64,000 nucleotides of DNA from a bacterium (GCA_963674595.2 CAXXFV010000003.1:128001-192000); one strand, 5' to 3'. Shown: positions 1,881-53,498, counted from the stretch's first letter. Made by a program: numbers and translations. Notes: generated from the sequence alone by a model not told the origin.

Positions 1881-2079
1881 TGCTTAACTCCTCAAGTTGT
1901 TCCAAATACTCAATAGCTTTAGGAATTACGTAACAATGGCCGTTCAACATTTGTCTAAATTGGGACCTGTTTATTTGAAGATGATCTGCCACATCTTTTG
2001 CAAAAAGATTATTTTCTAATATAATGCGTTTATATCGAATCCTTTCGCGGGGTTCCAATATTTTATGCTCATTATCCAT
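1870..2079 (-). CDS. Cro-like XRE HTH protein
   Basis: AKDVADHLQINRSQFRQMLNG; divergent from the repressor. Confidence 0.65.
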   Translation of the reverse strand: MDNEHKILEPRERIRYKRIILENNLFAKDVADHLQINRSQFRQMLNGHCYVIPKAIEYLEQLEELSNAS

Positions 2080-2270
2080 TTCTTACCTTTTGTTATTTTT
2101 CGTTGACTTTAAACTATTTTTTCTTTACAATAAAAAACGGGCATAGCCGTAAAAATGGCTTTGCGTTGTTTTTTCCCTCGGCCCTGAGGATCGCCAAATC
2201 AGAAGGGCCGAGAATTTAATGTAAATCGTTCTTTATTGTGGATTGTCCACTATTACCGATAACTATTGTT

Positions 2271-2298
2271 AATATATCATAATAAATGACAATGTCAA
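2271..2298 (-). promoter_or_regulatory. Leftward (lytic-type) sigma70 promoter overlapping the repressor start
   Basis: Minus strand TTGACA-16nt-TATATT with an extended TG. Confidence 0.6.
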
Positions 2299-2690
2299 GT
2301 AAAAAATACAATAATAATATTTTCTTTGAAAATATTACACAATTACGCAAAGAAAAAGGCTGGTCGCAAAATAGATTAGCGATTGAATGTGATGTATCAA
2401 CCTCATTTATGACCAACATCAAAAACGGTGCGCACCCTTCTGCAACCCTTTTGTATAACTTGTTTAATATTTTTTCAGACGAAACAAAAATATTAAATCC
2501 CATTTGGCTTTTTTACAATGAAGGCCCACAATACTTGTTTCTAAAAAAAGAAAATATTTTAAAATCAGATCCGCTTCAAAACGAACCTGACAAAATAGTG
2601 CAGGCTGTTAAAAATATTCGCGCCATGCCGGAAGAAAAACAAGACGCCGTGATACATATTTTAAACGGTATTTTCTTACTCAATAAATAA
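2286..2690 (+). CDS. CI-like XRE family repressor
   Basis: ITQLRKEKGWSQNRLAIECDVSTSFMTNIKNG HTH_3 motif; NPIWLFYNEG. Confidence 0.8.
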   Translation: MTMSSKKYNNNIFFENITQLRKEKGWSQNRLAIECDVSTSFMTNIKNGAHPSATLLYNLFNIFSDETKILNPIWLFYNEGPQYLFLKKENILKSDPLQNEPDKIVQAVKNIRAMPEEKQDAVIHILNGIFLLNK

Positions 2691-3048
2691 TAAAAAATTG
2701 AAATAATATTAGGTCGGATATAAAAAGAGAAAATAAAGGCAGCAAAACATTTGTCGGTTATTAATGGTCTGCTGCCACTTTTCGAAGCTAATAAATCTTT
2801 TTTAACATATTCCTGATTTTTGAACACTTGGCGCAAATACAATTTTTGTAATTAATACTTGAATAGTCTTTCAATTTTGTGCACAATCCGAAGCACATTA
2901 ATTCCAAATTTTCCAGCTCCATTATAATCGACTCGCATATCATAGCGCGCTCGGACTCACTCATACAAATATTCCCTTCCTTTTTTATTTGAATAATTTA
3001 AATAGACTTCAAAAAATACAAAAAATATGCCAAAACTACGGGGTGGAT

Positions 3049-3338
3049 ATGGATAAGTTATTTATCTATCTATTGTAGTTCACATCACTATTTGCAAAAA
3101 ATCTTAAAATCCATTTTATTGATTTATGCGGGGAGATGATATTTTAATTCAAAATGAAAATAATGCTTTTGCACATTGGTTTGGTACGAACATAGAAACA
3201 AACAGTTATGGTTACAAAGATGAAATTATCCCTGGTGAAATAGAATACAAAATTGTACAAATCGATCATGATTACGCTACAATCGGGTATGGCACAGTCG
3301 TTGTTGCAAACGAATTTAAATTTAAAAACATTAACTGA
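3049..3338 (+). pseudogene. Degenerate cargo gene remnant
   Basis: Broken frames give LKIHFID../GDDILIQ (ComEC/MBL-like first strands) then YGYKD...YKIVQIDHD. Confidence 0.35.
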
Positions 3339-3360
3339 AAAAAATAATATTGGTGAAATA

Positions 3361-4410
3361 ATGGCACATATACATCCGATAAAAGGTAAAAATGGAATTT
3401 CCTACAGAATAGATTATTATGTGGACGGAAAAAAAAGATACCACACTGTAAGCTATAAAGAGAAAAAAACTCTAAAAGAAATCAAACGAATTGCCGCGGA
3501 ATTAGAACTTAAAGCCGAACCGCTTGATCTCAGCGATCTAACGCTAAAACAATTCTATGATAAATGTCTCGAAAATCTGGAAGTTGATTTGTCCCCGGAA
3601 TCAATCAGATCAATAAAAAATAAATTCAAACCGTTTCTATTTTTTGCAGGTGAAAATATTAAAATAAACCTGATTACGCACCATTTTATTCATGAATATA
3701 AAAAGTGGTTATTCGAAAGAAACATGGAGAAATCAAATGATGAAGAAAAAACAAAAAGAGGGGTAAACGCCAATCTTAATATTCTTAGATGGGTTTTTAA
3801 TGAAGGGTATAGGCAGGATTTAATTAAAAATAAAATTTTCGACAAAGTTACTTTTTTAAAGGCTCAAGAGTATATAGCAGATTTTTTAACAAGGGATGAG
3901 GCGAGAACATTTTACAAACATTTGCCGGAGCGGAAAGAGGACAGGTTTTTTTATATTGTTTTGAAATATACTGGGATGAGAAGAAACGAAGTGTTGCTGT
4001 TAAAAGAAAAAGATATGGACGTTAAAAATGATCTTATTATTTTGCGTCATCGAAAAAATAAAAAGCCTATAACAAAACCTATGCACCTGATTGTTAAAAA
4101 AATATTAATGCAATGGGAAATTTTAACAGGTGATAAGGAAAGAAAACTTTTCTCTTTTCATCATGAATCGATAACGAAAATATTCAGGCGGGCTCTTAAT
4201 GAGGCAGGGCTTGAGGATAAAAAAGCGGCTGTTCATATACTCAGGCACACATACGGGACTCGGATAATGGAAACATACCAAAACGATCTTGATAGCGGGG
4301 AGAGATTAACTCAGGAATTGCTTGGTCATAAAAACATAAAATCAACTAGGCGTTATACTCACCTCGTCAGAAAAATATTAAAAGACAAGCATAGTAAAGT
4401 AAAATTTTAG
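3361..4410 (+). CDS. int: Tyrosine recombinase / phage integrase
   Basis: Arm-binding-like N-terminus (SYRIDYYVDGKKRY); catalytic motifs TGMRRNE, HILRHTYG, LLGH, TRRY; ATG 3361 preferred over 3253. Confidence 0.92.
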   Translation: MAHIHPIKGKNGISYRIDYYVDGKKRYHTVSYKEKKTLKEIKRIAAELELKAEPLDLSDLTLKQFYDKCLENLEVDLSPESIRSIKNKFKPFLFFAGENIKINLITHHFIHEYKKWLFERNMEKSNDEEKTKRGVNANLNILRWVFNEGYRQDLIKNKIFDKVTFLKAQEYIADFLTRDEARTFYKHLPERKEDRFFYIVLKYTGMRRNEVLLLKEKDMDVKNDLIILRHRKNKKPITKPMHLIVKKILMQWEILTGDKERKLFSFHHESITKIFRRALNEAGLEDKKAAVHILRHTYGTRIMETYQNDLDSGERLTQELLGHKNIKSTRRYTHLVRKILKDKHSKVKF

Positions 4411-4429
4411 TCTACAAAATATCTACAAA
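4411..4429 (+). repeat. Tandem TCTACAAA repeat, candidate integrase arm-type sites
   Basis: tctacaaaat-a-tctacaaa between the int stop and the tRNA junction. Confidence 0.5.
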
Positions 4430-4476
4430 TTAAAAAATTGATTAATAAAAATAATGTGTTATACCCCAGTGATTTT

Positions 4477-4509
4477 GAAGCTTGCATTCTACCGCTGAAT
4501 TACTCCCGC
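4477..4509 (-). tRNA. 5' half only of a tRNA (probably Gly-CCC), truncated in the anticodon loop; att junction
   Basis: Minus strand GCGGGAG-TA-ATTC-AGCGGTA-GAAT-G-CAAGC-TTC: acceptor 5' strand, D-arm and anticodon 5' stem. The following sequence has no matching 3' half. Confidence 0.8.
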
Positions 4510-4522
4510 TTTTTGACCACTT

Positions 4523-4550
4523 AATATAGATATTTTTTCAGAAAAATCAA
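4523..4550 (-). promoter_or_regulatory. Sigma70-like promoter of the tRNA
   Basis: Minus strand TTGATT-16nt-TATATT about 13 nt before G1. Confidence 0.55.
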
Positions 4551-5310
4551 GTATATTTCAGATAAGAGAAATTGCTTCTTATAAATATTTTTATCTTTAT
4601 CTCTGATTGAAGAGGATTAATCTTACAAAATTATTATCAGATAAAATAAAACAGAATTTCATAACTCTATTATCCTATTCTCCCGTACACACATAATAAA
4701 TTTGTCGGTTCCGAGTATTCCTGGAAAAATAAAAAAAATACATTTATAACGATCAGCTTTTAAAAAATTATAGTATTATTCATCGAAATTTTTTAATATA
4801 TACTGTTCAATATTGGATGGATTTTGCAGCATATTATTTATATTTGATGATGTTGTTTAATAGTTATGGCTTGGAAAATCAAAAATTTTGTGAAAAATTG
4901 GTAGGTGATTATTATTTTTGTTTTACAGTTCCAAGTTATGCCATATGGGACATATCTTTATCATGTCACACCGGGACAGGCTGATAAAAAACAATGGTGC
5001 AGCAAATATGAAACGGCCTATACCTTACGAGCCATGCAGCCGTTTGGCGAAGATGGTCTGGGACAACGAATTGGCGGCATATACGGTCTAAGTGACCGGT
5101 AGAATCTATCGGCAGGTGCGGCAACTATTACAGTACACTCGATTCGTTTTACAATTATTCAAGCCGGAAGCTAAACAGTTATTATAAATGAATTTTTTAT
5201 CTTTTAAAAATAACTGTTGCATAAATACCTAGAATTTTTTATCTATCAATATAGAATAATATTATTTTTAAGCAATACCATATATTGTATATTTTCCAGG
5301 AGGAGTATGA

Positions 5311-5985
5311 ATGAAAACGAAAATTTCTGCCATATTAATACTATTTTTACTTTCTATTTCTCTTGTTTCCTGTCAAAAAAAAGAAACTGAATCCAAAACA
5401 GCGGTCTATCAGAAAAAAGAAACCAGGAAAAACGATTCTGCAAAGGAATTAAAACAAAAACAGGAAGAACTGGATAATTTAAAAGTCGAAACTGAACTTT
5501 TACTAGAGTCTTTAAAAAAGAAAGAATTAGACCTGGTTATCAAAGAAGCAAAACTGGACTCTGTAAAAGAAGCCATTGCTGAAAAGGAAAAAGAACTTTT
5601 AGAACAAGAAATATTATTGCGCAAAATGCGCTCAACTTCGTTTATTGTTTTATTTACCGGACTCGTATTTCTGATTATCGGGGTTGCGGCCCTGCTAATT
5701 CGCAAAAAAAATGATACGGAAATAATAATTCCACCGGTTCCTGAAGAACAAATAATTGCAGAAAAACCTGTTAAAGAACCTAAAACAGAAACAGAAATCA
5801 AAACAGAACCTAAAACAGAAACAGAACCTAAAACAGAAACAAAAACAAAAACAGAGCCTAAAACAACGCCAAAACGAAAAACAACAACAGCTAAAAAACC
5901 GGAAACAGATACGGCAGAAAAAAAGCCGGTAAAACCGAGAGCGCCGCGTAAAACAAAAACACAAAACCAAAAAGATAAAGAGTAA
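5311..5985 (+). CDS. Lipoprotein-like coiled-coil membrane protein with a K/T/E/P low-complexity tail
   Basis: LVSC lipobox, coiled coil, TM helix, PKTETE repeats; AGGAGG RBS. Confidence 0.75.
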   Translation: MKTKISAILILFLLSISLVSCQKKETESKTAVYQKKETRKNDSAKELKQKQEELDNLKVETELLLESLKKKELDLVIKEAKLDSVKEAIAEKEKELLEQEILLRKMRSTSFIVLFTGLVFLIIGVAALLIRKKNDTEIIIPPVPEEQIIAEKPVKEPKTETEIKTEPKTETEPKTETKTKTEPKTTPKRKTTTAKKPETDTAEKKPVKPRAPRKTKTQNQKDKE

Positions 5986-6012
5986 AAAGCCCGTTATCGG
6001 GCTTTTTTTTTG
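5985..6012 (+). terminator. Rho-independent terminator
   Basis: aaaagcccg-ttat-cgggctttttttttt. Confidence 0.8.
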
Positions 6013-23696: not shown

Positions 23697-25079
23697 TTAA
23701 TAATGAATTATATTTTCATTCACGGTTGAAAGACTATTCAAGTAATCACGAACCAGACGAACAGTCTCAGAAACTGTATTTACATGCCTCATATCGATTC
23801 CGGGAGTATCATTATTTATGGATAACCAACTGCAAGCTATTTCAAAGGATTCATTATATTCGGAATTTTGAGGGTCATTCGCAAAAAAGATATCATCTAT
23901 TACAGGTGCTATTTCATTTTCATCAAACTCATTACCCAACTCAATTTTTAAAAGCCTGCCCGGCGGATTTAGCAGGTAAATATTAAACCTTTCCGGCTGT
24001 GCGCTGGGAAGAAATATTATACGCGGATACCTGTTCTTTTGTAAATGCCGGCGTTCGTGTGTTTGTAATTGAGTATTTAATCCGGGATTTTCTTTTTTTA
24101 TCCACTCCTGTTCAAGCAGCAGCGCTTCCAGCTCAGATCCGGTTGGTATTATTTTTAACTCATGCAGCAAATTTTGAATTGTTTTGGCCTTATCCGAATC
24201 ATCAAATCCGGTAAAATAGGACGATATCCTGCTTTTTAATTTTTTTGCCTTGCCGACATAAAAAAGGTCCCCTTTACGGTTATACATCAAATACACACCC
24301 GGAACAGTCGGCAGTTCCTTGATGTCATTTTCATCAAAGTTACATTTACTAAAATCAAATTTATTAATCTGCAGAGTTTCATAATAATCCCACAGATTCG
24401 TATAGGCATGGCCCTGTTTGTTTTCCAAAACATGAGAAATTCCGGCAAGCTGTTCGGTAAATTCTTTAAATAGAATTTCCATCTCTTTAGGACTGATATC
24501 GTGAAGCTGTTCAAGCTCATGGGACAGGAAATCAATCGAAATTCCATCGTTTTTTTGTAAAAATCGCTGCAAATTTTTATAGGAATAAACAGACAGATCA
24601 GCTTGATTACCCGTTAAATAGCCGACAGCTTTGCGGAACATGGATATTTGATTTCCTTCACCATCGAAAAGGAAACGATTTTCTGAAAAATGGTCAAGTG
24701 CGTTAAAAATATCAGCAAGATCATCAAAATCATCGGTCTCCCTGTTCCAAACAACAATTTTTTGAATTTGAAAATCTTGACAGACAGCATAGGAAAAAAC
24801 GCCCCACTTTTTCCAGTGAACAGCCTGTTGCGGAAGAATTTTTACAAATATAATATTCTCTTTTTCTTCCGGTAAAGAAACGGCTTTTTTATCAATTATA
24901 GTAAAATAACATCCGTTATCGTCCCGGCAGATTGATAATTCGGAGGCAACAATACTGTCAACAATCGCTTTGGCGGCAGTGGAATTTTTTGTCTCCATTT
25001 TCAAAACGTCCCGCATTATCTGCACAGCAGAAACAGGTTCAGCGCGATCATTTAAATAATTAATAATTTTCTGTTTCAT
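23697..25079 (-). CDS. GIY-YIG (UvrC/Cho-like) nuclease with a divergent N-terminal region
   Basis: PTVPGVYLMY...YVGKAKKLKSRISSYF...SELEALLLE...P.LN. Confidence 0.75.
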   Translation of the reverse strand: MKQKIINYLNDRAEPVSAVQIMRDVLKMETKNSTAAKAIVDSIVASELSICRDDNGCYFTIIDKKAVSLPEEKENIIFVKILPQQAVHWKKWGVFSYAVCQDFQIQKIVVWNRETDDFDDLADIFNALDHFSENRFLFDGEGNQISMFRKAVGYLTGNQADLSVYSYKNLQRFLQKNDGISIDFLSHELEQLHDISPKEMEILFKEFTEQLAGISHVLENKQGHAYTNLWDYYETLQINKFDFSKCNFDENDIKELPTVPGVYLMYNRKGDLFYVGKAKKLKSRISSYFTGFDDSDKAKTIQNLLHELKIIPTGSELEALLLEQEWIKKENPGLNTQLQTHERRHLQKNRYPRIIFLPSAQPERFNIYLLNPPGRLLKIELGNEFDENEIAPVIDDIFFANDPQNSEYNESFEIACSWLSINNDTPGIDMRHVNTVSETVRLVRDYLNSLSTVNENIIHY

Positions 25080-25090
25080 TCAATATATTT

Positions 25091-25567
25091 TCAATTTGCA
25101 GGCACATTTTTCCGACTGCTCCAAATGGAAACGCCGATGATCCCACCGAGTAAACCAAAGATGGTATTAACAACAAGGTTTAGGGCAAAATCAAGCAGAA
25201 TAAAACTGTTCTCAAGAAGTCGCGGATTAAAATTGTCGATAAGGGCCTGAAGGTCCGGATCATTTATTGTTGCGGATATTTTATACAGGACATTAAAAGT
25301 GGCAGGTCCGAAAAAAGAATGCAGAATAATGCTTATAAATGTTCCAAATAGTCCTGATAAAAATCCAAGCAATGCTCCGTCTGATACAGAGATGACATAC
25401 TCGGGAGAGGAATCTTTGTAAAACAAATAGGCTGATAAAACGCCGCCGCCTATAACGCCCATACAGCACATACAATTTATAAAGTTCAAAAAGGGAATAC
25501 CACCGATGACGCCTATTAATATTCCCCCTAATAACGCTGGTCTTAATTTGTTTGCAGACTTTTCCAT
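25091..25567 (-). CDS. Membrane protein (about 4 TM)
   Basis: Hydrophobic Gly-rich helices; INCMCC motif. Confidence 0.7.
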   Translation of the reverse strand: MEKSANKLRPALLGGILIGVIGGIPFLNFINCMCCMGVIGGGVLSAYLFYKDSSPEYVISVSDGALLGFLSGLFGTFISIILHSFFGPATFNVLYKISATINDPDLQALIDNFNPRLLENSFILLDFALNLVVNTIFGLLGGIIGVSIWSSRKNVPAN

Positions 25568-26719: not shown

Positions 26720-26824
26720 AGAAACCCTCCTTTTTTAATAAAAAAAAAGTTGACGAACATAATTTAAAGGAATATAGAAAAAACATGTAAAATGAAAAAG
26801 GCTTTTTTTGTGTTTCCCCGTGAT

Positions 26825-26995
26825 AAAACAAAGGCGCCCCCCCTTCATGCGAGCGCCCATATGTCCTCCCGAAACTCCCCTAAAAAAGATGTTTTATTAC
26901 GTAAGGTACGCAATAAAACATCGAATTGAGGTAACCCACCAGTCCCTCGTACGCCTATAGACCCCCAAGAAGAAGGAAAGTATGTCAACCTTCTA
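26825..26995 (-). ncRNA. Putative G-tract-rich small RNA divergent from the ECF sigma gene
   Basis: GC-rich non-coding island in AT-rich DNA; about 7 GGG+ tracts; hairpin 26888-26922; terminal GC hairpin plus U-run; upstream promoter-like motif. Ends are approximate. Confidence 0.5.
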
Positions 26996-27002
26996 TAATA
27001 AA

Positions 27003-27031
27003 AGTGTGGGAATTAAACTAAATAGTCTCAA
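27003..27031 (-). promoter_or_regulatory. Candidate ECF promoter TTGAGA-N19-CACT (copy 1)
   Basis: Minus strand ttgaga-ctatttagtttaattccca-cact; same spacing as the copy at 27823. Confidence 0.5.
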
Positions 27032-27207
27032 AAAAAAATTAGTTTATCTTATAAAAAGTACTTTTTTTTATAACCACTAAAATTTTAACGTACCAAAAAA
27101 ATATTCAAAAAATCATTGATTTTTTTATATTTAATCACTAAAATAGGCCATTAGGTTATCTAAAATATCTGAGCAACAACAAATGTTAGAGGGCAAAAAT
27201 CAAAAAC

Positions 27208-27822
27208 TTGTCTTTACAACAACTATTGGTGTATTGTACAGATAACCATTCTCCATACTGGCAAAATGCGTGGAATGAGTTTATAAACAGGTATAAAAAT
27301 TACATCTACAAAATTGTTATCAGAGTTTGCAACGATTGGCATATCGAGCGGTTACAATGTCAAAAATCAGACTTTATTAACGATATTGTCTCTGAAATTT
27401 TTTTAGAATTGTTTAAAAATGATGCCAGGGTATTAAAAAGCTATAAAAATCTGGACCAGGAACATTTATTTTTAATTTGGTTATCAACACTTTCCACACG
27501 AATGGCCCGGCGGAATATTGAAAAACATTTTCGCAATGATACCATTTTGACCGATTGGGACGATTTTAAATCTTTTCGTGAATATTTACAGCCGGATTTG
27601 TGTTGGGAACTATATGATATGACTGTGAATATTTTGCGTGAAAAGCATAACAGCGAAAACAAAGAACGTGATATTCACATTTTTATGTTATATACCTGGA
27701 GTAATTTCTCTAACGATATTATTCACAAACTGCCGTTTTTTAAATTTTTGGGTAAAAGAGTGATCGATAATGTTGTAAATCGACTGCGAAATACGATACG
27801 TAAGGAAAGAAAGACATTTTAA
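27208..27822 (+). CDS. ECF-type RNA polymerase sigma factor (divergent)
   Basis: AWNEFINRYKNYIY, DIVSEIFLEL, FLIWL (region 2); DIHIFMLY...VVNRLR (region 4); TTG start after GAGGG. Confidence 0.75.
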   Translation: MSLQQLLVYCTDNHSPYWQNAWNEFINRYKNYIYKIVIRVCNDWHIERLQCQKSDFINDIVSEIFLELFKNDARVLKSYKNLDQEHLFLIWLSTLSTRMARRNIEKHFRNDTILTDWDDFKSFREYLQPDLCWELYDMTVNILREKHNSENKERDIHIFMLYTWSNFSNDIIHKLPFFKFLGKRVIDNVVNRLRNTIRKERKTF

Positions 27823-27851
27823 TTGAGAGAAAACAATTATTATATGTCACT
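27823..27851 (+). promoter_or_regulatory. Candidate ECF promoter TTGAGA-N19-CACT (copy 2)
   Basis: ttgaga-gaaaacaattattatatgt-cact, directly after the sigma stop and before the anti-sigma operon. Confidence 0.5.
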
Positions 27852-27898
27852 AACTTATGTAAGCACAATAATACTCTCATTTAAAAAAAGGATATAAA

Positions 27899-28336
27899 AT
27901 GTCAGAAACAGTTATTCAAGAAAAAAACCTAAGTTTAGGAATGGCTCTGGCATATATTGAGGCAGAAGAATTTCACGATCAGTTAATCGACAAAAGTAAC
28001 TTTACCCAAAATGACGCTGACTTTTACCGCGATATCAAATCTCAATTTGCCGCACTGAAAAAAGACACACCAAAAATACAATTATATAAAATGATTCCTC
28101 AACATCGGTGCAATTCACTAGAGCCCTTTGTAAAAAATAACAAGCAGTTTTTCCTCGCTTATATTATGACAAATAACATTTATTTTAACAATGAATTTGC
28201 AGACAAAACGATGGAACATTTAAATAATTGTTATTGGTGTTTTGAAACATTTTTTAGTACAATGCAGGAATATTATGTAACATCATCTAATCTTATTTCT
28301 GAACGTATAAAGGGGGAACCTGAAAATGGAAAGTGA
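27899..28336 (+). CDS. Soluble protein with a zinc-binding anti-sigma-like HxxxCxxC motif
   Basis: EHLNNCYWCF with an upstream Cys (HRC); no TM helix. Confidence 0.65.
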   Translation: MSETVIQEKNLSLGMALAYIEAEEFHDQLIDKSNFTQNDADFYRDIKSQFAALKKDTPKIQLYKMIPQHRCNSLEPFVKNNKQFFLAYIMTNNIYFNNEFADKTMEHLNNCYWCFETFFSTMQEYYVTSSNLISERIKGEPENGK

Positions 28337-29411
28337 ATTAAAAATATATCAAATCATTCAGCAGTATATTACAGATAAAACAAAAAAACCGGAGCCATCT
28401 TTACAAAATTCCGATGGCAGCACTCTGTTTTTTATTTTGGAAATGATAGATTCCTGTAAAACAAAGGGTGAACTCTATGTTACAAAAGATCAGCACGTCC
28501 CTTTATCTGTAACAGAATCTGAAAATTTGATTTTAAAAATTCTTTCTCAGGATTTTGACAAAGAAACCTGCCAAAAATTTTTAGCCCAGTTATATTATTC
28601 GTTTGAATTTTTTCAAAAATTGTGTTATGTACATAATGTAAAAATAAAAGCGGAAAATGCAACTCTAGTTGACCATGAAATTCAAACTCTATCCGATCAC
28701 GAACTCTATATAAAATTGTTTCAAAAAAACCAAAAACAAAATTCATTTTCACTGGCACTTGAAAAAACAAAAATTATTATTGCAAATCTTTTCCCAACAT
28801 TTAAACCGGCCTACGCTATTGGAGTTGTAGCTGCAGCGCTCTTTTTCATTTGGATTTTTCAGCCATCTTCCGGGACGAATAAAATATACGACACTTATTT
28901 TGGAAAAATGAATACGCCCTACGAATATCAAAATACAAATCTACGAGGTCACATTAATATTGCAGATCAGTCACCCGTGTTAGATAATTTGAAATATAAT
29001 TTTAAACAAGGGATGGCAGATTATGTAAACCAAAATTACAGTTCAGCCGTTGATCAATTTAATATTGTTTCACAACCGGCAGACTCTGTTTATGCAAACG
29101 ATAAAGATAGTAAAATAGATATACTTGGTGATTATTATTTCTATTACGGACTATGTTATTTAGCACAAGTTAGAACAAAAAATAAAACAGAGCAAAGAGA
29201 ATTGTTGAAAATGTCCTCCAGGCTTTTAGAAAAAGCTAAAAAATATGCAAAAAATAATGGGGACGCCAAAGAGCACTTTTTTCTAGGACTAAGTTATGCA
29301 ATGTTGGATGAAACGAAAAAAGCACGTACCGAGTTGGAAAAAATTTCAGGTTCATCCGTATTTTCACAACCAAGTTTAAACATGTTAAAAACACTTAAAC
29401 CGGGAGATTAA
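28326..29411 (+). CDS. Single-pass membrane anti-sigma-like protein with an extracytoplasmic TPR region
   Basis: TM AYAIGVVAAALFFIWIF, then NLRG, then TPR-like YFYYGLCYL and HFFLGLSYAML. Confidence 0.65.
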   Translation: MESELKIYQIIQQYITDKTKKPEPSLQNSDGSTLFFILEMIDSCKTKGELYVTKDQHVPLSVTESENLILKILSQDFDKETCQKFLAQLYYSFEFFQKLCYVHNVKIKAENATLVDHEIQTLSDHELYIKLFQKNQKQNSFSLALEKTKIIIANLFPTFKPAYAIGVVAAALFFIWIFQPSSGTNKIYDTYFGKMNTPYEYQNTNLRGHINIADQSPVLDNLKYNFKQGMADYVNQNYSSAVDQFNIVSQPADSVYANDKDSKIDILGDYYFYYGLCYLAQVRTKNKTEQRELLKMSSRLLEKAKKYAKNNGDAKEHFFLGLSYAMLDETKKARTELEKISGSSVFSQPSLNMLKTLKPGD

Positions 29412-29413
29412 AT

Positions 29414-29557
29414 ATGGAAGTAATCCATTTAATACTTGAAATCGTTATTCTCATTTTACTGATAGTCGTTTTATCAAAACTATCTAATTGCAAGAGTACT
29501 GGTGGTGCAGCAACAAGAGATGAAGTTCCACCGCCATCACAACCAACAGGTGGTTAA
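29414..29557 (+). CDS. 47-aa membrane peptide with a Pro-rich tail (not in the ORF track)
   Basis: MEVIHLILEIVILILLIVVLSKLSNCKSTGGAATRDEVPPPSQPTGG; GGGAG RBS 7 nt upstream; starts 2 nt after the previous stop. Confidence 0.7.
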   Translation: MEVIHLILEIVILILLIVVLSKLSNCKSTGGAATRDEVPPPSQPTGG

Positions 29558-29622
29558 TATTTTATTCAATAAGTAAATAAACAAAAATAACAACTTTTCT
29601 CCTGCTCTGTTTTCTATTCTTT

Positions 29623-32600
29623 TTGGTTATAACTTTCATGCTGCTGATTTTAAATACAACGGGTAATAATAATTTTAAAAAAAATCATTCACGAATTATT
29701 ATTATTTTATTTCTAATTTTTTACACCTCCCTGTCTTTTTCATTCGAAAATTTTAAAAATTATTATCAGGAACTTGACAAACAAAAAGCTCCCGGCGAAA
29801 GAATATCCACCCTGCTTGACATTATAAAAACATCACCTCAGCAGGAAAGGGCATATACTGATCTTTTACATTCCTGCCAAACAAACGCGGATAGGGATTC
29901 TGTTTTAATTTTTATTAAAAATTTATCCCCTTCACCATACAGCTCCTTTGTTCAGGCCCGAATATATGAAAAAATTAATGATAATGACACAGCATTGCGG
30001 TTTTATTTAAACAGTGTCAGGACCGAACAGGTAATACCATACATTGTTTACTATTTTATGCAATTCATTAACAAAACAGACACGGATGTTACCAATATCA
30101 TTGAGACGTTTTCACTTGAGAATAAAAATTTGGCAAGGGCATTTTTATATCTTTTCCAGCAAAACTATATTAAAGCAAGTGAATATTTTGCTAAAGCCAA
30201 CAACAACAATACGTTTGTTATGGAACAATATGCTTTCTCGGAATGGAAGTTGGGGCATTATAACAAAGCGGATTCACTCTTGCAGGCAGGACTTTTTGAC
30301 GCAATAAAAACAAAGGATACTGCGGCTCAAGTCCTTTTACAAACAAAACAAGGCTATTTTTTATCATTACGTGGAAACATGGATAAAGCACTTGTTTTAC
30401 ACCAGCAGGCCCTGAAAACGGCTCAAAGCATCAGTGCCCCACATCTTTTATCAAGAATTGATAATAATATTGGTGTGGTTTATTACATGCAAAGCCGTTA
30501 TTCACAAGCATTGCCGTATTTTCAACAGGCAATAAAAAACAGCGGTCTTTTTGATGATGATTGGAAATGCCGATATTATATCAATCTGGGTATGACCTGT
30601 AAAATGATGGCACAATATAGCCAGGCCCTGACGGCTTATAATATGGCTGAAGATTTGGCCCGCCAAAATAATGACAAACAGCAAATCGCATCTGCAAATA
30701 TGAACAAGGGTGATTTGTATCTTTTATTAAAATTGAACAATTTGGCCAAAACCAGTTATGAAACGGCTCAAAACAATTTTCAAGCAAATGATAAAAACTA
30801 TTACAAAATTCAGGCAAAACTTGTTGAATTTGCTATTCAACGGGGGCAATATGCAAAAGCTGAAAAAGAAATAAAAAACTATATTGCATCTCTGGGTCCG
30901 ACACAAAATGTGGAAAATGCCTACTGGAATTACCGCATTGCCGGGCTCTATGAAAAACAAAAAGAATATTCACTCGCTGAAAAACAATTAAACAAATCCA
31001 TAGAACTTGCACGAAAAGCAAACTCGTCCGATTATCAGAATATTTACTCCTTTCAACTTGTAAAACTCTTGCTCAAACAAAACAATGCAGAACAAGCTTT
31101 AACGTTACTAAATAACATCCCCCGGGAACATGATCTGAATGATCATAACAAACGCTGGTTTCATTATTATTATGGGCAAGCCCTTTCCCAAACCGGGCAA
31201 ACAGACAAGGCGATTTTTCATTACAAACAGGCGGCTGTTCTTGCAGAAAAAACTTTGGAACAACTAAGCCTGGAGGAACTGGAAATCGGCTTTTTAGCAC
31301 CCAACAGTCAAATTTATAAAAACCTGTCAGTCTGTTATTTTCAAAAATATCAGCAGCAACAAAAAGCGGTATTCATAGACAGTTTGTATTATTTTGAAGA
31401 AATGAGCCGGTTACGGGTTTTTAAAGATAACATTAATGATGTTTTAAAAAATCATCAGGTAAATAAAACGATATTAAAAGATTATGAAACAGCCAAAGAA
31501 AACCTTCAACATACTATTTTTAACCTCCGATCTAATTCCGGACAAGAGTTATCAGAAAAACAATGGGACCTGAAGATAGGTGAGTTTGAAACAGCTAAAC
31601 GTTCATTTTTAGCCCAAAAATTAAAATTGTACAATACCAAAAAGAAAAAAAATATTTCCAAACAAAAAACATACTCGGTTAAAGATTTACAACACTATGT
31701 AACCAAAAACAATTGCGGGGTGCTATTATACCATATCCACGATAACGCTTCTTTTGTATTATGTATCACACCGGATACAACAAAAATTGTGCAACTGGAT
31801 ATCAATATGGAATCTTTAAAAGCCAGGACAGATTCTCTTATATTGCCCTTTTTTAAAATTAAGGAAAATAATTTATCCGACATTCCCTATCGGGCATCAT
31901 TGGCCTATCAACTCTATTTACAGCTTTTTCAGCCACTCGAAAGAGCCGTTTCGTTACCAAACAAACTTTTTATCGTGCCGGACAATTTATTGTTAAACAT
32001 TCCCTTTGAAATACTGCTCACACAGGAACCGGCAAAAAAAGAATATACTGTTTTAGACACTCCAGACTATAAAACATTATTTCTCTTGAACAGTTATACC
32101 ACATCCTATCATTTTTCAACAACCAACATATTATCCGGTTCAAAACCGGGCAAAAAAGATAAAATAGTGGCTTTTGCCAATCCATTCGTAACCCAAAACG
32201 AAAGTATGGATAAACAATTACAATTCAGATGGCGTACCGGATTCCGGTTTGAACCTTTACCCTTTGCAGAGCTGGAAGCGCGACAAATAAAAAAAATAAA
32301 CAACAGTACCAACCTGTTTACACGTGAAGCAGCAAACGAACAGAATTTACAGCTCTATGCGCAAAAGTGCGATATATTACATTTTGCCACCCACGCATTT
32401 GCAGATACATTGTATGATATTTTTTCAGGCCTGGTCCTGGCAACACCAAAGGATTCTTTAAAAGACGGCCTTTTATTAGGATACGAAATCCCGGAACTGA
32501 ACCTTAACTGCCAACTTGTAACACTGAGCGCCTGTGAAACCGGTCGCGGGCAGGTTGTTTCAGGTGAAGGTGTTTTAGGTCTGCCGCGCCTCTTTATAAA

Positions 32601-32940
32601 AGCCGGTGCACGCACCGTTATGATGACATTGTGGAAAGTAGATGATTACCTGACATCCAAACTTGTTCCTAAATTCTACTCTTATTTTATTCAAAAAAAC
32701 GTATCCAAGGCTAAAGCATTAAGACTGGCAAAATTGGATATTCTATCTCTTCCCCCTTCACAGCAATCCTTTCATTACCAGCATCCGGTCTACTGGGCTT
32801 CTTTTATGCTTTATGGTGATCCGGGATTTGCAGCCGAACCTCCGGCATGCCGCTTAACTTTAATTCTTTTTGGTTTATCAGGATTGATATTTTTAGTTAT
32901 TGTTATTTGGGTAATAAAAATAAAAAACAGAAAATTCTGA
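29623..32940 (+). CDS. TPR-CHAT (caspase/separase-like) protease, exported and C-terminally anchored
   Basis: Hydrophobic N-terminus, many TPRs, IVPD..L..IPFE, LHFATHA, LVTLSACETG, LWKVDD, HPVYWASF, C-terminal TM plus basic tail. Confidence 0.92.
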   Translation: MVITFMLLILNTTGNNNFKKNHSRIIIILFLIFYTSLSFSFENFKNYYQELDKQKAPGERISTLLDIIKTSPQQERAYTDLLHSCQTNADRDSVLIFIKNLSPSPYSSFVQARIYEKINDNDTALRFYLNSVRTEQVIPYIVYYFMQFINKTDTDVTNIIETFSLENKNLARAFLYLFQQNYIKASEYFAKANNNNTFVMEQYAFSEWKLGHYNKADSLLQAGLFDAIKTKDTAAQVLLQTKQGYFLSLRGNMDKALVLHQQALKTAQSISAPHLLSRIDNNIGVVYYMQSRYSQALPYFQQAIKNSGLFDDDWKCRYYINLGMTCKMMAQYSQALTAYNMAEDLARQNNDKQQIASANMNKGDLYLLLKLNNLAKTSYETAQNNFQANDKNYYKIQAKLVEFAIQRGQYAKAEKEIKNYIASLGPTQNVENAYWNYRIAGLYEKQKEYSLAEKQLNKSIELARKANSSDYQNIYSFQLVKLLLKQNNAEQALTLLNNIPREHDLNDHNKRWFHYYYGQALSQTGQTDKAIFHYKQAAVLAEKTLEQLSLEELEIGFLAPNSQIYKNLSVCYFQKYQQQQKAVFIDSLYYFEEMSRLRVFKDNINDVLKNHQVNKTILKDYETAKENLQHTIFNLRSNSGQELSEKQWDLKIGEFETAKRSFLAQKLKLYNTKKKKNISKQKTYSVKDLQHYVTKNNCGVLLYHIHDNASFVLCITPDTTKIVQLDINMESLKARTDSLILPFFKIKENNLSDIPYRASLAYQLYLQLFQPLERAVSLPNKLFIVPDNLLLNIPFEILLTQEPAKKEYTVLDTPDYKTLFLLNSYTTSYHFSTTNILSGSKPGKKDKIVAFANPFVTQNESMDKQLQFRWRTGFRFEPLPFAELEARQIKKINNSTNLFTREAANEQNLQLYAQKCDILHFATHAFADTLYDIFSGLVLATPKDSLKDGLLLGYEIPELNLNCQLVTLSACETGRGQVVSGEGVLGLPRLFIKAGARTVMMTLWKVDDYLTSKLVPKFYSYFIQKNVSKAKALRLAKLDILSLPPSQQSFHYQHPVYWASFMLYGDPGFAAEPPACRLTLILFGLSGLIFLVIVIWVIKIKNRKF

Positions 32941-52017: not shown

Positions 52018-53498
52018 ATGGTTAATATGCAAAACTATACACGAAGGTCATTTCTCAAATCTGTTGGTGCAGGATTGGCCGCAACGACTATAGGATTGTC
52101 ATCCTGTGCAAAAAGTAAAGAGCGGCCAAACGTCATTCTCATTATTGGTGACGACATAAGCTGGAACGATTTAGGGTGTTATGGTCACCCCAGTATCCGC
52201 ACACCCAATATCGACAAATTGGCGGCAAATGGTATTCGCTTTACAAATACGTTTTTAACCGCCAGTTCCTGCAGTCCCAGCCGCTGCAGTATCATAACCG
52301 GACGTTATCCGCACAATACCGGCGCGGCCGAACTTCATACACCTTTACCGGCAGACCAACTGCCGTTTCCCTTGTTGTTAAAAGAGAACGGATACTATTG
52401 TGCCCAGGGCGGCAAATGGCACATGGGAGAAGAAACAAAACGCGCTTTTGATATTGTTCGTGATACCAAACCGGAAAATGACCCCGGACGCGAAAGCGAG
52501 TGGCTGCCCTTATTACAAGGCCGCCCCAAGGACAAACCATTTTTTATGTGGTTTGCCAGTTTTGATGCCCATAGAACATGGGACGACCAGATTTTCCTGG
52601 AACGCCATAATCCGGCAGACGTGCCGGTACCAAAATATCTGGCAGATGCGCCCGATACCCGTCAGGACCTTTCCCATTATTATGATGAAATTGCGAGACT
52701 TGATTTTTACGTCGGTAAAGTTGAGGAAGAACTGGAAAAACAGGGTGTTGCAGATAATACCATTATTATTTTTATGGCAGACAACGGACGGCCCTTTCCC
52801 CGGTGTAAAACACGCGTATATGACAGCGGCATGAAAACACCGTTTATTATTAAATGGCCAAAAGGTATAAAAAACAAGGTGCTGCATGCCAAAGCATGAT
52901 CAGTTCCATTGATATTGCCCCAACCGTTCTTGAATTATGCGGCTGTCCTGTTGAGGATTCCTTCCAGGGTGGTAATTTTTCATCATTGTTTAAAAATCCT
53001 GAAAAACCATTTCGTCATTATGTATTTTCAGAACATAACTGGCACAATCATGAGGCCCTGGAACGAATGGTCAGGTCAAAAGATTATCTTTACGTTCTTA
53101 ATGAGCGCCCCCAGTTTCCCAACTGTGGTCCCACAGACTCTAATCGCAGTGATTCACAAAAGGACTTGAACGCACTTTTGGCTGCGGGTAATCTGACACC
53201 GGAACAAAACGATGTATTTTTAGCACCGCGCCCGGCTGAAGAATTGTTTGATTTAAATAAAGATCCCGAGCAATTTCAAAATATTGCTGATGATCCGAAT
53301 TATGCAGACGCCCTGAAGGAAATGCGTCAAATTATGGAACGCTGGCGCGATGAAACAGCCGACACAACACCCGAAAATCTGACATACGACTGGAATGCCC
53401 GTTTTACGGCGGAAAAACTGGATATTGAGCGAAAACGTGGTGAAATGCCGGGTGCGGCAAAATCAGCGGATAAAGTTAATGCCAAAGGTCCGTTTTAA
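52018..53498 (+). pseudogene. Tat-exported sulfatase split by a 1-nt deletion near 52870 (pseudogene or sequencing error)
   Basis: TRRSFLK, IGDD, CSPSR, GKWH, DNG in frame 1; SIDIAPT...ELFDL..DP in frame 2; junction lies in an A run. Confidence 0.8.

What the first reader, a model, noticed from the sequence alone, without database searches (positions are those of the whole stretch)
26825..32940. Candidate trans-envelope caspase-like signalling system: ECF sigma, two anti-sigma-like proteins, a micropeptide, an exported TPR-CHAT protease and a putative small RNA
Seen: five co-oriented genes. They encode a divergent ECF sigma, a soluble HxxxCxxC protein, a single-pass protein with outside TPRs, a 47-aa membrane peptide and a 1105-aa TPR-CHAT with intact His (HFATH) and Cys (SACETG). 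The CHAT has a hydrophobic N-terminus and a C-terminal TM anchor. A divergent structured non-coding element shares a promoter-like motif with the operon. Known: CHAT proteases are clan CD caspase/separase relatives, and in type III-E CRISPR the TPR-CHAT Csx29 cleaves Csx30 to release a sigma factor. Inference: this is a CRISPR-independent, extracytoplasmic version. An outside cue or peptide would activate the protease, the membrane anti-sigma would be clipped, and the sigma would switch on a small regulon including the RNA. No cas genes or arrays are in the window. CHAT/ECF/anti-sigma adjacency is seen in other genomes; the peptide and RNA components are what I cannot match to a described system.
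Basis: partly seen in the sequence, partly recalled or inferred. Interest (0 to 1): 0.88.

Follow-up and report, generated by a model that had tools for sequence, protein, structure and literature searches.

The report
Split sigma switch with periplasmic caspase-like protease
Five neighbouring genes of an uncultured KSB1/Calditrichota-type bacterium encode a very divergent alternative sigma factor, a small zinc-finger protein predicted to hold it, a membrane adaptor, a tiny membrane peptide and an exported caspase-like protease, which together look like a multi-part version of the one studied system (Myxococcus DdvA/DdvS) in which such a protease may switch a sigma factor on.

Summary
The five co-oriented genes are real and kept together. 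Of 20 related loci with the sigma-like gene, 20 have the 145-aa gene next, 17 a 361-aa-type membrane gene and 14 the TPR-CHAT gene. The 204-aa protein misses family thresholds but folds as an ECF sigma. The 145-aa protein has invariant Cys/His/Cys/Cys residues and is predicted to bind the sigma-4 region (score 0.74, best control 0.01). The protease has a Sec-type signal, a C-terminal anchor and an invariant His/Cys pair. A small membrane peptide with a proline-rich tail recurs in 13 of 18 loci.

The closest known system is DdvA/DdvS of Myxococcus (PMC11506125), where zinc anti-sigma domain, membrane helix and periplasmic TPR-CHAT are one protein; here they are three.

The RNA claim fails. The element is structured, but similar elements lie upstream of pfk where the sigma gene is elsewhere, and no shared divergent promoter motif exists.

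This scan has noted split sigma/anti-sigma/CHAT modules on other DNA, none matching this one by sequence.

Verdict: new variant of a known kind; the mechanism is inferred.

The parts
27062..27144 (+). Operon upstream region. It holds two direct copies of a 22-nt A/T-rich motif ending in CACTAAAAT (27062-27083 and 27123-27144). The second copy overlaps a sigma-70-like site, TTGATT-17-TAAAAT, at 27116-27144.
   Evidence: the repeat finder family D1; consensus scan, 9 of 12 matches. Consensus matches only; function not shown.
27208..27822 (+). Divergent ECF-type sigma factor, 204 aa.
   Evidence: AF2 model with pLDDT 91.9. The ten best Foldseek rows are all ECF sigma chains; best E 1.4e-3 (1or7_A); sigma-2-only entry 4lup_A has TMt 0.80 and rmsd 2.6 over 110 columns. 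Five of 37 scanned distant family members reach the Sigma70_r2 cut-off. No Pfam hit for the window copy itself.
27899..28336 (+). Soluble 145-aa protein with an invariant Cys-His-Cys-Cys set (C71, H107, C111, C114). Candidate zinc anti-sigma factor.
   Evidence: Alignment A2 of 18 sequences. Predicted complex with the sigma: ipSAE 0.74 against 0.01 for the best control, interface sigma residues 129-180 with residues 73 and 88-129. No Pfam family in 0 of 18 members. No membrane span.
28326..29411 (+). Single-pass membrane protein, 361 aa: cytoplasmic helical N-domain of about 160 aa, membrane span near 164-179, periplasmic linker with a conserved L-R-(G/S) at R207, then a periplasmic TPR-like domain. 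Its start overlaps the stop of the 145-aa gene by 11 nt.
   Evidence: Arg in 14 of 16, Lys in 1 of 16.
29414..29557 (+). 47-aa micropeptide: N-terminal membrane helix, basic flank, proline-rich tail. It starts 2 nt after the 361-aa gene's stop, behind a GGGAGA ribosome-binding site.
   Evidence: A like gene sits at the same place in 13 of 18 loci.
29623..32940 (+). Exported TPR-CHAT protease of 1105 aa as listed (the ATG at 29638 is the more likely start): signal-like N-terminus, TPR array, CHAT domain at residues 761-1066 with His920/His924 and Cys971, C-terminal membrane span and a short basic tail.
26800..26990 (-). Structured G-run-rich non-coding element between the sigma gene and pfk, on the pfk strand. 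Listed because the finding included it. I read it as separate from the module.
   Evidence: Folding z -4.48; no Rfam family; comparable elements upstream of pfk in relatives.

Best explanation
This is a conserved operon of KSB1/Calditrichota-type bacteria. It encodes a multi-chain ('split') counterpart of the DdvA/DdvS type of sigma control.

Shown by computation:
- Gene 1 is a highly divergent ECF-type sigma factor.
- Gene 2 is a soluble protein with four invariant zinc-ligand-type residues. It is predicted to clamp the sigma-4 region.
- Gene 3 is an N-in single-pass membrane protein with a periplasmic TPR domain.
- Gene 4 is a small membrane peptide whose proline-rich tail most likely faces the cytoplasm.
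- Gene 5 is a Sec-exported TPR-CHAT protease, tethered by a C-terminal membrane helix, with an intact His/Cys pair.

Inferred mechanism:
- At rest the sigma factor is held by the zinc protein. The cytoplasmic domain of the membrane protein probably helps and keeps the complex at the membrane.
- A periplasmic or envelope cue, read by the TPR arrays, activates the CHAT protease.
- The protease clips the membrane protein in its variable juxtamembrane linker, where one L-R-(G/S) site is conserved.
- A site-2 protease and cytoplasmic proteases then remove the remainder, and the sigma factor is freed.
- The micropeptide would act as a small membrane-embedded modulator of the membrane protein or the protease, not as an external signal.
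For: Synteny (20 related loci chosen by the sigma homologue):
- The 145-aa gene follows in 20 of 20.
- A 361-aa-type gene follows in 17 of 20: 14 by tblastn, 3 more by ORF and alignment.
- TPR-CHAT follows in 14 of 20.
- Of the three loci with a 361-aa-type gene but no CHAT hit, L044 shows the protease's N-terminus running off the contig end. L031 and L035 reach their contig ends about 1.3-1.4 kb past the peptide gene with no long ORF there.

Wider set: a separate motif scan of 185,579 species genomes gave 25 loci, and every one whose record names a taxon is labelled KSB1, Calditrichia-type or (4 loci) 'uncultured Cytophagia'. The sigma gene lies directly upstream in 23 of 25. CHAT lies downstream in 15 of 25.

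Sigma identity.

Zinc-ligand set.

Binding prediction:
- Score 0.74, best of 3 controls 0.01.
- That mark was reached by 116 of 157 solved complexes and 2 of 215 mismatched pairs.
- The runs agree in at least 88% of contacts; partner pLDDT is at least 79.
- My own alignments were used, so these counts hold only roughly. Sigma/anti-sigma complexes are solved, so the pass may partly reflect likeness to them.

Topology:
- Signal-peptide-like N-termini and C-terminal span plus basic tail in 13 of 13 protease orthologues.
- One membrane span in the membrane protein across the orthologues.

Conserved Arg207 in an otherwise gap-rich periplasmic linker: Arg in 14 of 16, Lys in 1.

Tight gene junctions: the 145-aa stop and the 361-aa start overlap or lie within about 20 nt, and the peptide starts 2-25 nt after the 361-aa stop.

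Independent architecture: in L050 the same sigma/145-aa pair is followed by a TPR protein, four proteins with no Pfam hit, an Ig-domain protein, an 837-aa TPR-CHAT and a Ser/Thr kinase.

Precedent: in DdvA, CHAT-mediated clipping of the linker followed by RseP cleavage is the model proposed by its authors (PMC11506125, abstract and passages).

The genome has M50 site-2 protease genes.
Against: - No experiment and no RNA data exist for this organism.
- Contact between the membrane protein's cytoplasmic domain and the sigma or the 145-aa protein was not tested. It is therefore unexplained how clipping a separate membrane protein would free a sigma held by a soluble partner.
- The 145-aa protein matches no anti-sigma family: 0 of 18 members hit zf-HC2 at E up to 1.
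- The sigma/145-aa pair also occurs without the membrane TPR protein and the protease: 3 of 20 loci, two of them with a membrane Rieske protein instead. So the protease is not obligatory for this sigma family.
- No ECF-type two-part promoter motif is conserved upstream of the sigma gene in 19 loci. The window's upstream region looks sigma-70-like. Autoregulation is therefore not indicated.
- The substrate specificity of this CHAT protease is unknown; the conserved Arg is only suggestive.
- In DdvA itself, CHAT-dependent cleavage is proposed, not demonstrated (PMC11506125 passages).
Confidence: 0.55

Rival explanations
1. Output, not sensor. The sigma and the 145-aa anti-sigma form the complete switch, perhaps a redox or zinc switch as in other zinc anti-sigmas. 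The membrane TPR protein, peptide and protease are simply co-expressed envelope proteins, for example for envelope protein processing or quality control.
For: The sigma/145-aa pair stands without the protease in 3 of 20 loci. It is followed by a different membrane protein (Rieske) in two of them. The predicted complex needs only these two proteins. All five genes appear to share one upstream region, with short gene junctions.
Against: The 361-aa protein has the topology of a membrane anti-sigma, and its start is coupled to the 145-aa gene's stop in most loci. The association of this sigma pair with a TPR protein and a TPR-CHAT recurs in a differently built operon (L050). DdvA fuses the corresponding parts in one chain (PMC11506125).
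Confidence: 0.2
2. Conflict or defence module. The caspase-like protease is a death or immunity effector triggered by phage or competitor attack on the envelope, and the sigma factor turns on a defence regulon, as DdvS does.
For: DdvA/DdvS control a CBASS-CRISPR island and phage defence (PMC11506125 abstract). Craspase links a TPR-CHAT to a sigma factor (PMC10028731 passages).
Against: No defence family among the five proteins apart from a weak generic TPR match on the protease (PDLC01169, E 8.7e-05) (PADLOC). No cas genes or CRISPR-like repeats in the window. The flanks are housekeeping genes: pfk here, and a quinolinate-synthase-like gene, named from its sequence by eye, downstream in relatives. 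Synteny is stable within a bacterial family, unlike a mobile island.
Confidence: 0.12
3. An exported peptide or outside cue activates the protease, the membrane anti-sigma is clipped, and the freed sigma drives a small regulon that includes the divergent RNA.
For: The core (sigma, anti-sigma-like proteins, extracytoplasmic protease) is supported as above. The peptide is a conserved component.
Against: The peptide has no signal-peptide cleavage site, leader or exporter next to it. Its basic flank after the helix puts the tail inside the cell in 10 of 13 copies. RNA-like elements go with pfk, not with the sigma gene. No inverted copy of an operon motif lies upstream of the RNA. The RNA sequence has no BLAST match in 30 relatives.
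Confidence: 0.05

Closest known systems
DdvA/DdvS of Myxococcus xanthus (PMC11506125; I read the abstract and passages)
   Same: An ECF sigma next to an anti-sigma function built on a Cys-His-Cys-Cys zinc site. A periplasmic TPR-CHAT of the separase/craspase type. Membrane-spanning signal transfer. The authors propose protease clipping of a juxtamembrane linker followed by site-2 proteolysis.
   Different: DdvA is one chain: zinc domain, membrane helix, periplasmic TPR-CHAT. Here these are three proteins plus a micropeptide. The protease is tethered by a C-terminal rather than an N-terminal helix. The His/Cys pair is intact and invariant here, whereas DdvA's active site is described as incomplete. 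No sequence-level match to solved DdvA chains. No CBASS or CRISPR genes nearby. Different lineage: the authors found DdvA-like proteins in Myxococcota and one Comamonas.
Craspase, type III-E: Csx29 TPR-CHAT, Csx30, CASP-sigma (PMC10028731; passages read)
   Same: A TPR-CHAT protease genetically linked to an ECF-type sigma factor and a sigma-binding inhibitor, with proteolysis proposed to relieve inhibition.
   Different: Craspase is cytoplasmic, RNA-guided and bound to Cas7-11. Here the protease is exported, and no cas genes or arrays are in the window. No detectable sequence relation of the 145-aa or 361-aa proteins to any solved chain.
Classical regulated proteolysis of membrane anti-sigma factors (RseA/DegS/RseP; RsiW), as summarised in PMC10028731 and PMC11506125
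   Same: A cytoplasmic sigma-binding part, one membrane span, a periplasmic domain, and site-1 then site-2 cleavage.
   Different: The proposed site-1 protease is a clan CD caspase-like enzyme encoded in the operon. The sigma-binding zinc module is a separate soluble protein.
ECF54 group of Actinobacteria (supplement of PMC7826278, file 1, which was cut when stored)
   Same: A published case of ECF sigma genes that keep CHAT/TPR proteins in their neighbourhood without an obvious anti-sigma.
   Different: Different phylum and partners (subtilase, carboxypeptidase-regulatory-like domain). I could not test whether the window's sigma belongs to any numbered ECF group, and later groups in that file were not visible.

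Membership tests
ECF (group 4) sigma-70 factors | Sigma-2 domain fold | tested here: met
   AF2 model pLDDT 91.9. Sigma-E region 2 entries superpose at TMt 0.70-0.80, rmsd 2.4-2.8, over about 110 columns. The ten best Foldseek rows are all ECF sigma chains, although no row reaches E 0.001.
ECF (group 4) sigma-70 factors | Sigma-4 domain (helix-turn-helix for the -35 element) | tested here: inconclusive
   Full-length alignments to sigma-E, AlgU and SigW chains cover about 200 columns with probability 1.00, but TM is only 0.33-0.38 because the domain orientations differ. Sigma70_r4_2 is hit only weakly in 3 of 37 scanned family members.
ECF (group 4) sigma-70 factors | Score above curated family thresholds | tested here: not met
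   Window copy: no Pfam family; TIGR02937 scores 19.4 bits against a cut-off of 42.9. Among 37 scanned family members, five reach the Sigma70_r2 cut-off of 24 bits (P0125, P0129, P0135, P0141, P0144).
Zinc-binding anti-sigma factors (ZAS; Pfam zf-HC2) | H-x3-C-x2-C motif plus a fourth upstream ligand | tested here: met
   C71, H107, C111 and C114 are invariant in 18 of 18. Zinc binding itself was not tested.
Zinc-binding anti-sigma factors (ZAS; Pfam zf-HC2) | Profile match to the family | tested here: not met
   0 of 18 members hit PF13490 at E up to 1. No solved chain was hit by the profile: the best E was 8.3, to an unrelated protein.
Zinc-binding anti-sigma factors (ZAS; Pfam zf-HC2) | Anti-sigma domain fold | tested here: inconclusive
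   Foldseek: best E 1.7. VIA-align wide: nothing at Z 5 or above. The PupR cytoplasmic anti-sigma domain (5cam_A) scores Z 3.7, rmsd 2.4, 55 aligned residues, at rank 19, tied with many unrelated helical proteins.
Zinc-binding anti-sigma factors (ZAS; Pfam zf-HC2) | Binds the cognate sigma factor | tested here: met
   Prediction only: ipSAE 0.74 against a best control of 0.01. The mark was reached by 116 of 157 solved complexes and 2 of 215 mismatched pairs. Runs agree in at least 88% of contacts; partner pLDDT at least 79. This supports binding but does not show it.
DdvA-type TPR-CHAT anti-sigma factors | One polypeptide with N-terminal zinc anti-sigma domain, membrane helix and periplasmic TPR-CHAT | tested here: not met
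   The three parts are separate genes in every locus examined. No longer fused relative of the 145-aa protein was found (which is weak evidence).
DdvA-type TPR-CHAT anti-sigma factors | TPR-CHAT located outside the cytoplasmic membrane, next to an ECF sigma gene | tested here: met
   Signal-like N-termini and a C-terminal span with a basic tail in 13 of 13 orthologues. CHAT E 3.3e-60. The sigma gene is 1.8 kb upstream. Location is inferred from sequence only.
Type III-E Craspase | Association with Cas7-11 and a CRISPR array | tested here: not met
   No CRISPR-like repeats in the window. No cas family among the 43 ORFs of 120 aa or more. CRISPR-like repeats exist elsewhere in the genome, the nearest on the same contig about 19-84 kb before the window's start.
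CHAT (clan CD) proteases | CHAT domain with catalytic His and Cys | tested here: met
   PF12770, 204 bits against a cut-off of 24. His920/His924 and Cys971 are invariant in 13 of 13. Activity not tested.

The most novel reading that the evidence does not exclude
A three-chain trans-envelope proteolytic switch. A separately exported, membrane-tethered and catalytically intact caspase-like protease clips a dedicated membrane adaptor at a conserved Arg. This undoes a two-part anti-sigma hold on an unusually divergent sigma factor: a soluble zinc module on sigma-4 plus the adaptor's cytoplasmic domain on sigma-2. A membrane micropeptide with a cytoplasmic polyproline tail sets the threshold, either as a securin-like or MgrB-like modulator or through EF-P-dependent translation.
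Probability: 0.25. Interest if true: 0.75.

Novelty: new variant of a known kind. Interest (0 to 1): 0.55.

Why it matters
Whether CHAT (caspase/separase-like) proteases really act as the site-1 protease that releases an ECF sigma factor is still only a proposal, even for DdvA (PMC11506125).

In this variant the sensor-protease, its presumed substrate and the sigma-binding module are separate proteins, and the catalytic pair is intact. Each step could therefore be tested on its own in a heterologous host: binding, cleavage at the conserved Arg, and release.

The locus also adds:
- a sigma family so divergent that standard family models miss it (1418 representative clusters at E up to 0.001);
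- an orphan zinc-finger partner family (35 clusters, all unnamed);
- a recurrent membrane micropeptide.

These are the kinds of components that annotation pipelines skip.

Tried and rejected
- **Rfam.** No family at gathering score in the whole window. At E up to 10 only chance miRNA/snoRNA rows around the RNA element and its counterpart in L026.
- **BLAST of the RNA element.** Run against 30 relatives: only the element itself.
- **Sequencing runs.** No RNA holder is listed for this stretch.
- **Peptide gene as a translational leader controlling the protease gene.** The 141-nt stretch spanning the peptide gene's end, the 65-nt spacer and the protease gene's start has no stable structure (z +1.08). 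Rejected as unsupported.
- **ECF-type two-part promoter upstream of the sigma gene.** A dyad count over 19 loci gave only A/T-rich pairs, barely above shuffles.
- **Homology between the 145-aa and 361-aa proteins.** Profile-profile probability 0.7%.
- **Fused long relatives of the 145-aa protein.** None found (weak evidence, as the tool states).
- **Language-model look-alikes.**
  - Nothing usable for the 145-aa protein.
  - For residues 1-185 of the 361-aa protein, the best named cluster scores 0.89 with zf-HC2 on 39% of members. This is a lead only.
- **Sequence searches of solved structures.**
  - The protease's CHAT part alone matched nothing at E up to 10.
  - The whole protease and its profile returned TPR proteins in every row shown: all 52, the best 60 of 292.
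- **The search for related loci with the sigma alignment.** It failed for lack of a conserved stretch. The 145-aa alignment was used instead.
- **Genes downstream of the protease.** DUF3078 and DUF3307 in the window are not kept in relatives. The apparent conserved + strand ORFs there are shadows of a convergent quinolinate-synthase-like gene, named by eye.

Full report
**What is there.** Between 27208 and 32940 the + strand carries five ORFs with short junctions:
- a 204-aa protein;
- a 145-aa protein;
- a 361-aa protein whose start overlaps the previous stop by 11 nt;
- a 47-aa ORF that starts 2 nt after the previous stop, behind a GGGAGA ribosome-binding site;
- after a 65-nt spacer, a 1105-aa protein.

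Only the last has a clear family: CHAT (PF12770, E 3.3e-60) preceded by TPR repeats. The window is otherwise ordinary chromosome, with genes such as miaA, mutL, htpG, an RND efflux system and T9SS-sorted proteins. There is no cas family among its 43 ORFs of 120 aa or more and there are no CRISPR-like repeats.

**Conservation.** The 204-aa protein has relatives in 23 of 61 genomes searched, G000 included: 14 of 18 in its own family, none in 14 and 8 genomes of two sister families, and some in other families of the class.

I fetched about 10 kb around 20 of these matches.
- The 145-aa gene follows the sigma-like gene in 20 of 20.
- A 361-aa-type gene follows in 17 of 20: 14 by tblastn and 3 more by ORF and alignment.
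- The TPR-CHAT gene follows in 14 of 20, in four pieces in L037.
- Three loci have a 361-aa-type gene but no CHAT hit. L044 shows the protease's N-terminus running off the contig end. L031 and L035 reach their contig ends about 1.3-1.4 kb past the peptide gene with no long ORF there.
- Three loci lack both. In two of those a membrane Rieske protein follows the pair instead.

A motif scan of one genome from each of 185,579 species found 25 loci. Every one whose record names a taxon is labelled candidate division KSB1, Calditrichia/Calditrichaceae/Calditrichaeota or 'uncultured Cytophagia'; the rest are labelled only 'bacterium'.
- The sigma gene lies directly upstream in 23 of 25. One of the other two is cut by a contig end; one has no hit.
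- CHAT lies downstream in 15 of 25.
- One of them, L050, has a differently built operon with the same logic: sigma, 145-aa protein, a TPR protein, four proteins with no Pfam hit, an Ig-domain protein, an 837-aa TPR-CHAT and a Ser/Thr kinase.

Relatives are not independent samples, so these counts show conservation, not statistics.

**The sigma factor.** Family scans fail on the window copy: no Pfam hit, and TIGR02937 scores 19.4 bits against a cut-off of 42.9.
- A profile of 19 orthologues finds 1418 representative clusters at E up to 0.001, and 104 at 1e-30.
- Of 37 members scanned, mostly from the distant end of the 150 listed, five reach the Sigma70_r2 cut-off and three touch Sigma70_r4_2.
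- The AF2 model is confident (pLDDT 91.9).
- The ten best Foldseek rows are all ECF sigma chains: sigma-E, AlgU, SigW, SigK. The best E is 1.4e-3. Region-2-only entries superpose at TMt 0.70-0.80 and rmsd 2.4-2.8.

I accept it as a very divergent ECF-type sigma factor. The sigma-4 half is less firmly shown.

**The 145-aa protein.**
- It has no membrane span and no family: 0 of 18 orthologues hit any relevant Pfam model.
- Its family is small: 35 clusters, all unnamed or 'hypothetical'.
- Six columns are invariant in 18 sequences: C71, H107, N109, C111, C114 and F115. That is a Cys-His-Cys-Cys set of the kind that binds zinc in ZAS anti-sigma domains. DdvA's domain is described as 'CHCC-type' (PMC11506125 abstract).
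- The complex prediction with the sigma factor scored 0.74, and the best of three controls scored 0.01. That mark was reached by 116 of 157 solved complexes and 2 of 215 mismatched pairs. The runs agree in at least 88% of contacts, and the partner's pLDDT is at least 79.
- The interface joins sigma residues 129-180 (the start of sigma-4) to residues 73 and 88-129 of the partner, the part that carries the Cys/His set.
- This supports binding but does not show it. Because sigma/anti-sigma complexes are solved, part of the score may be likeness to them.
- Its fold (pLDDT 88.2) has no clear solved match. The PupR anti-sigma domain appears only at Z 3.7, rank 19.

**The 361-aa protein.**
- It has one hydrophobic span near residues 164-179 in every orthologue.
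- TPR families hit the C-terminal half in 9 of 16.
- The N-terminal 160 residues are helical and carry an L-S-G...A..F-L pattern. From memory this resembles the helix that bears the zinc motif in classical anti-sigma domains, but without the ligands. A language-model look-alike search gave only a sub-threshold lead to zf-HC2.
- Between the membrane span and the TPR part lies a gap-rich, variable linker with one conserved island, L-R-(G/S). Arg207 of the window copy is Arg in 14 of 16 and Lys in 1.

**The micropeptide.** A small ORF with an N-terminal hydrophobic helix and a proline-rich, often acidic tail sits between the 361-aa gene and the protease gene in 13 of 18 loci that hold this interval.
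- The window is counted among these. One copy, L036, is doubtful. L026 and L027 are near-identical.
- Four loci have a 188-237-aa ORF there instead, and one has nothing.
- Seven of the ten peptide-type ORFs printed are preceded by a GGAG/GAGG-type site.
- In 10 of 13 the helix is followed at once by Lys/Arg. By the positive-inside rule this places the tail in the cytoplasm.
- I therefore read it as a small membrane modulator, not an exported cue.

**The protease.**
- Orthologues begin with Sec-type signal peptides.
- All 13 aligned copies end in a hydrophobic span and a basic tail.
- All 13 keep His920, His924 and Cys971.
- The body should therefore lie in the periplasm, tethered to the inner membrane.

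**Closest known.** The literature search led to DdvA/DdvS of Myxococcus xanthus (PMC11506125, abstract and passages). DdvA is a single protein with a cytoplasmic CHCC zinc domain that binds sigma-2 and sigma-4, a membrane helix and a periplasmic TPR-CHAT with an incomplete active site. Its authors propose CHAT clipping of the linker and then RseP cleavage. [quoted passage not shown]

The window's module has the same parts on three chains, with an intact catalytic pair. Other comparisons:
- Craspase (PMC10028731, passages) is a looser parallel: cytoplasmic and RNA-guided.
- The ECF classification notes CHAT/TPR neighbours for group ECF54 of Actinobacteria (supplement of PMC7826278). That file was cut when stored, so later groups may mention more.
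- With those three searches I found no paper that describes a split sigma / anti-sigma / periplasmic CHAT module.
- Earlier notes of this scan describe the same general kind on other DNA, in Bacteroidales, Xanthomonas relatives and soil bacteria. None shares sequence with this locus. I treat them as leads only.

**Mechanism.** Steps that are shown and steps that are inferred are separated in the best explanation. The weakest link is how cleavage of a separate membrane protein would free a sigma factor held by a soluble partner. This needs a contact between the membrane protein's N-domain and the pair, which I could not test. The occurrence of the sigma/145-aa pair with other membrane partners suggests a modular design in which the third gene supplies the input.

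**The RNA.**
- The minus strand of 26790-27000 folds well (z -4.48). The plus strand folds less well (z -2.12).
- It matches no Rfam family and has no BLAST match in 30 relatives.
- It lies upstream of pfk on pfk's strand.
- The two relatives with the same pfk-sigma arrangement have a different-looking but also G-run-rich element ending in a strong terminator.
- By eye, similar elements precede pfk in G004 and G009, where the sigma gene is on another contig. They are missing upstream of pfk in four other relatives.
- Homology among these elements is not established.
- The only repeated motif in the intergenic region is a direct repeat on the operon's strand.
- I conclude that the RNA is a separate feature, probably tied to pfk.

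**Verdict.** The system is a new, multi-chain variant of a known but barely studied kind.

Noticed in passing
window 26800-26990 (-); L026 1925-2175 (-); L076 and L077 (pfk upstream regions of G004 and G009): G-run-rich structured elements with many A-GGG(G) motifs and terminal hairpin plus U-run precede the pfk gene in 5 of 9 related genomes inspected by eye. They match no Rfam family. Possibly a small RNA or a pfk leader. A protein-sponge role like CsrB is only a guess from the repeated GG(G)A motifs.
   Followed up: partly
L033 and L038 (relatives): The same sigma/145-aa pair is followed by a membrane protein with a Rieske [2Fe-2S] domain instead of the TPR membrane protein and protease. 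The third gene of this sigma family therefore seems exchangeable.
   Followed up: partly
L050 8122-17608: A Calditrichia-labelled relative has a longer operon: sigma, 145-aa protein, TPR protein, four proteins with no Pfam hit, an Ig-domain protein, an 837-aa TPR-CHAT and a Ser/Thr kinase.
   Followed up: partly
L047 11038-17818 (same contig as L030): Two TPR-CHAT genes lie in tandem after the cassette in one relative.
   Followed up: no
L034, oriented coordinates 4359-5211; L035: In one clade about 0.8 kb without a long ORF separates the micropeptide gene from the protease gene, against 65-300 nt elsewhere.
   Followed up: no
window 23697-25079 (-) and 25091-25567 (-): A 460-aa protein with a GIY-YIG domain and a small multi-span membrane protein (weak DUF5518 match) lie divergently next to the sigma gene in many genomes of the same family. 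This is probably inherited synteny rather than function.
   Followed up: partly
window 52018-52899 and 52854-53498 (+): A sulfatase appears split into two overlapping ORFs (Sulfatase and SGSH_C domains). This could be a frameshift or an assembly error.
   Followed up: no
window 2001-6000; 3253-4410 (+): A low-GC stretch (0.31-0.32) holds a phage-type integrase gene. Possibly an integrated element.
   Followed up: no
G000 contig C3, about 44-109 kb (outside the window): Repeats spaced 74 nt apart look like CRISPR arrays on the same contig. The nearest lies about 19 kb and the farthest about 84 kb before the window's start.
   Followed up: no
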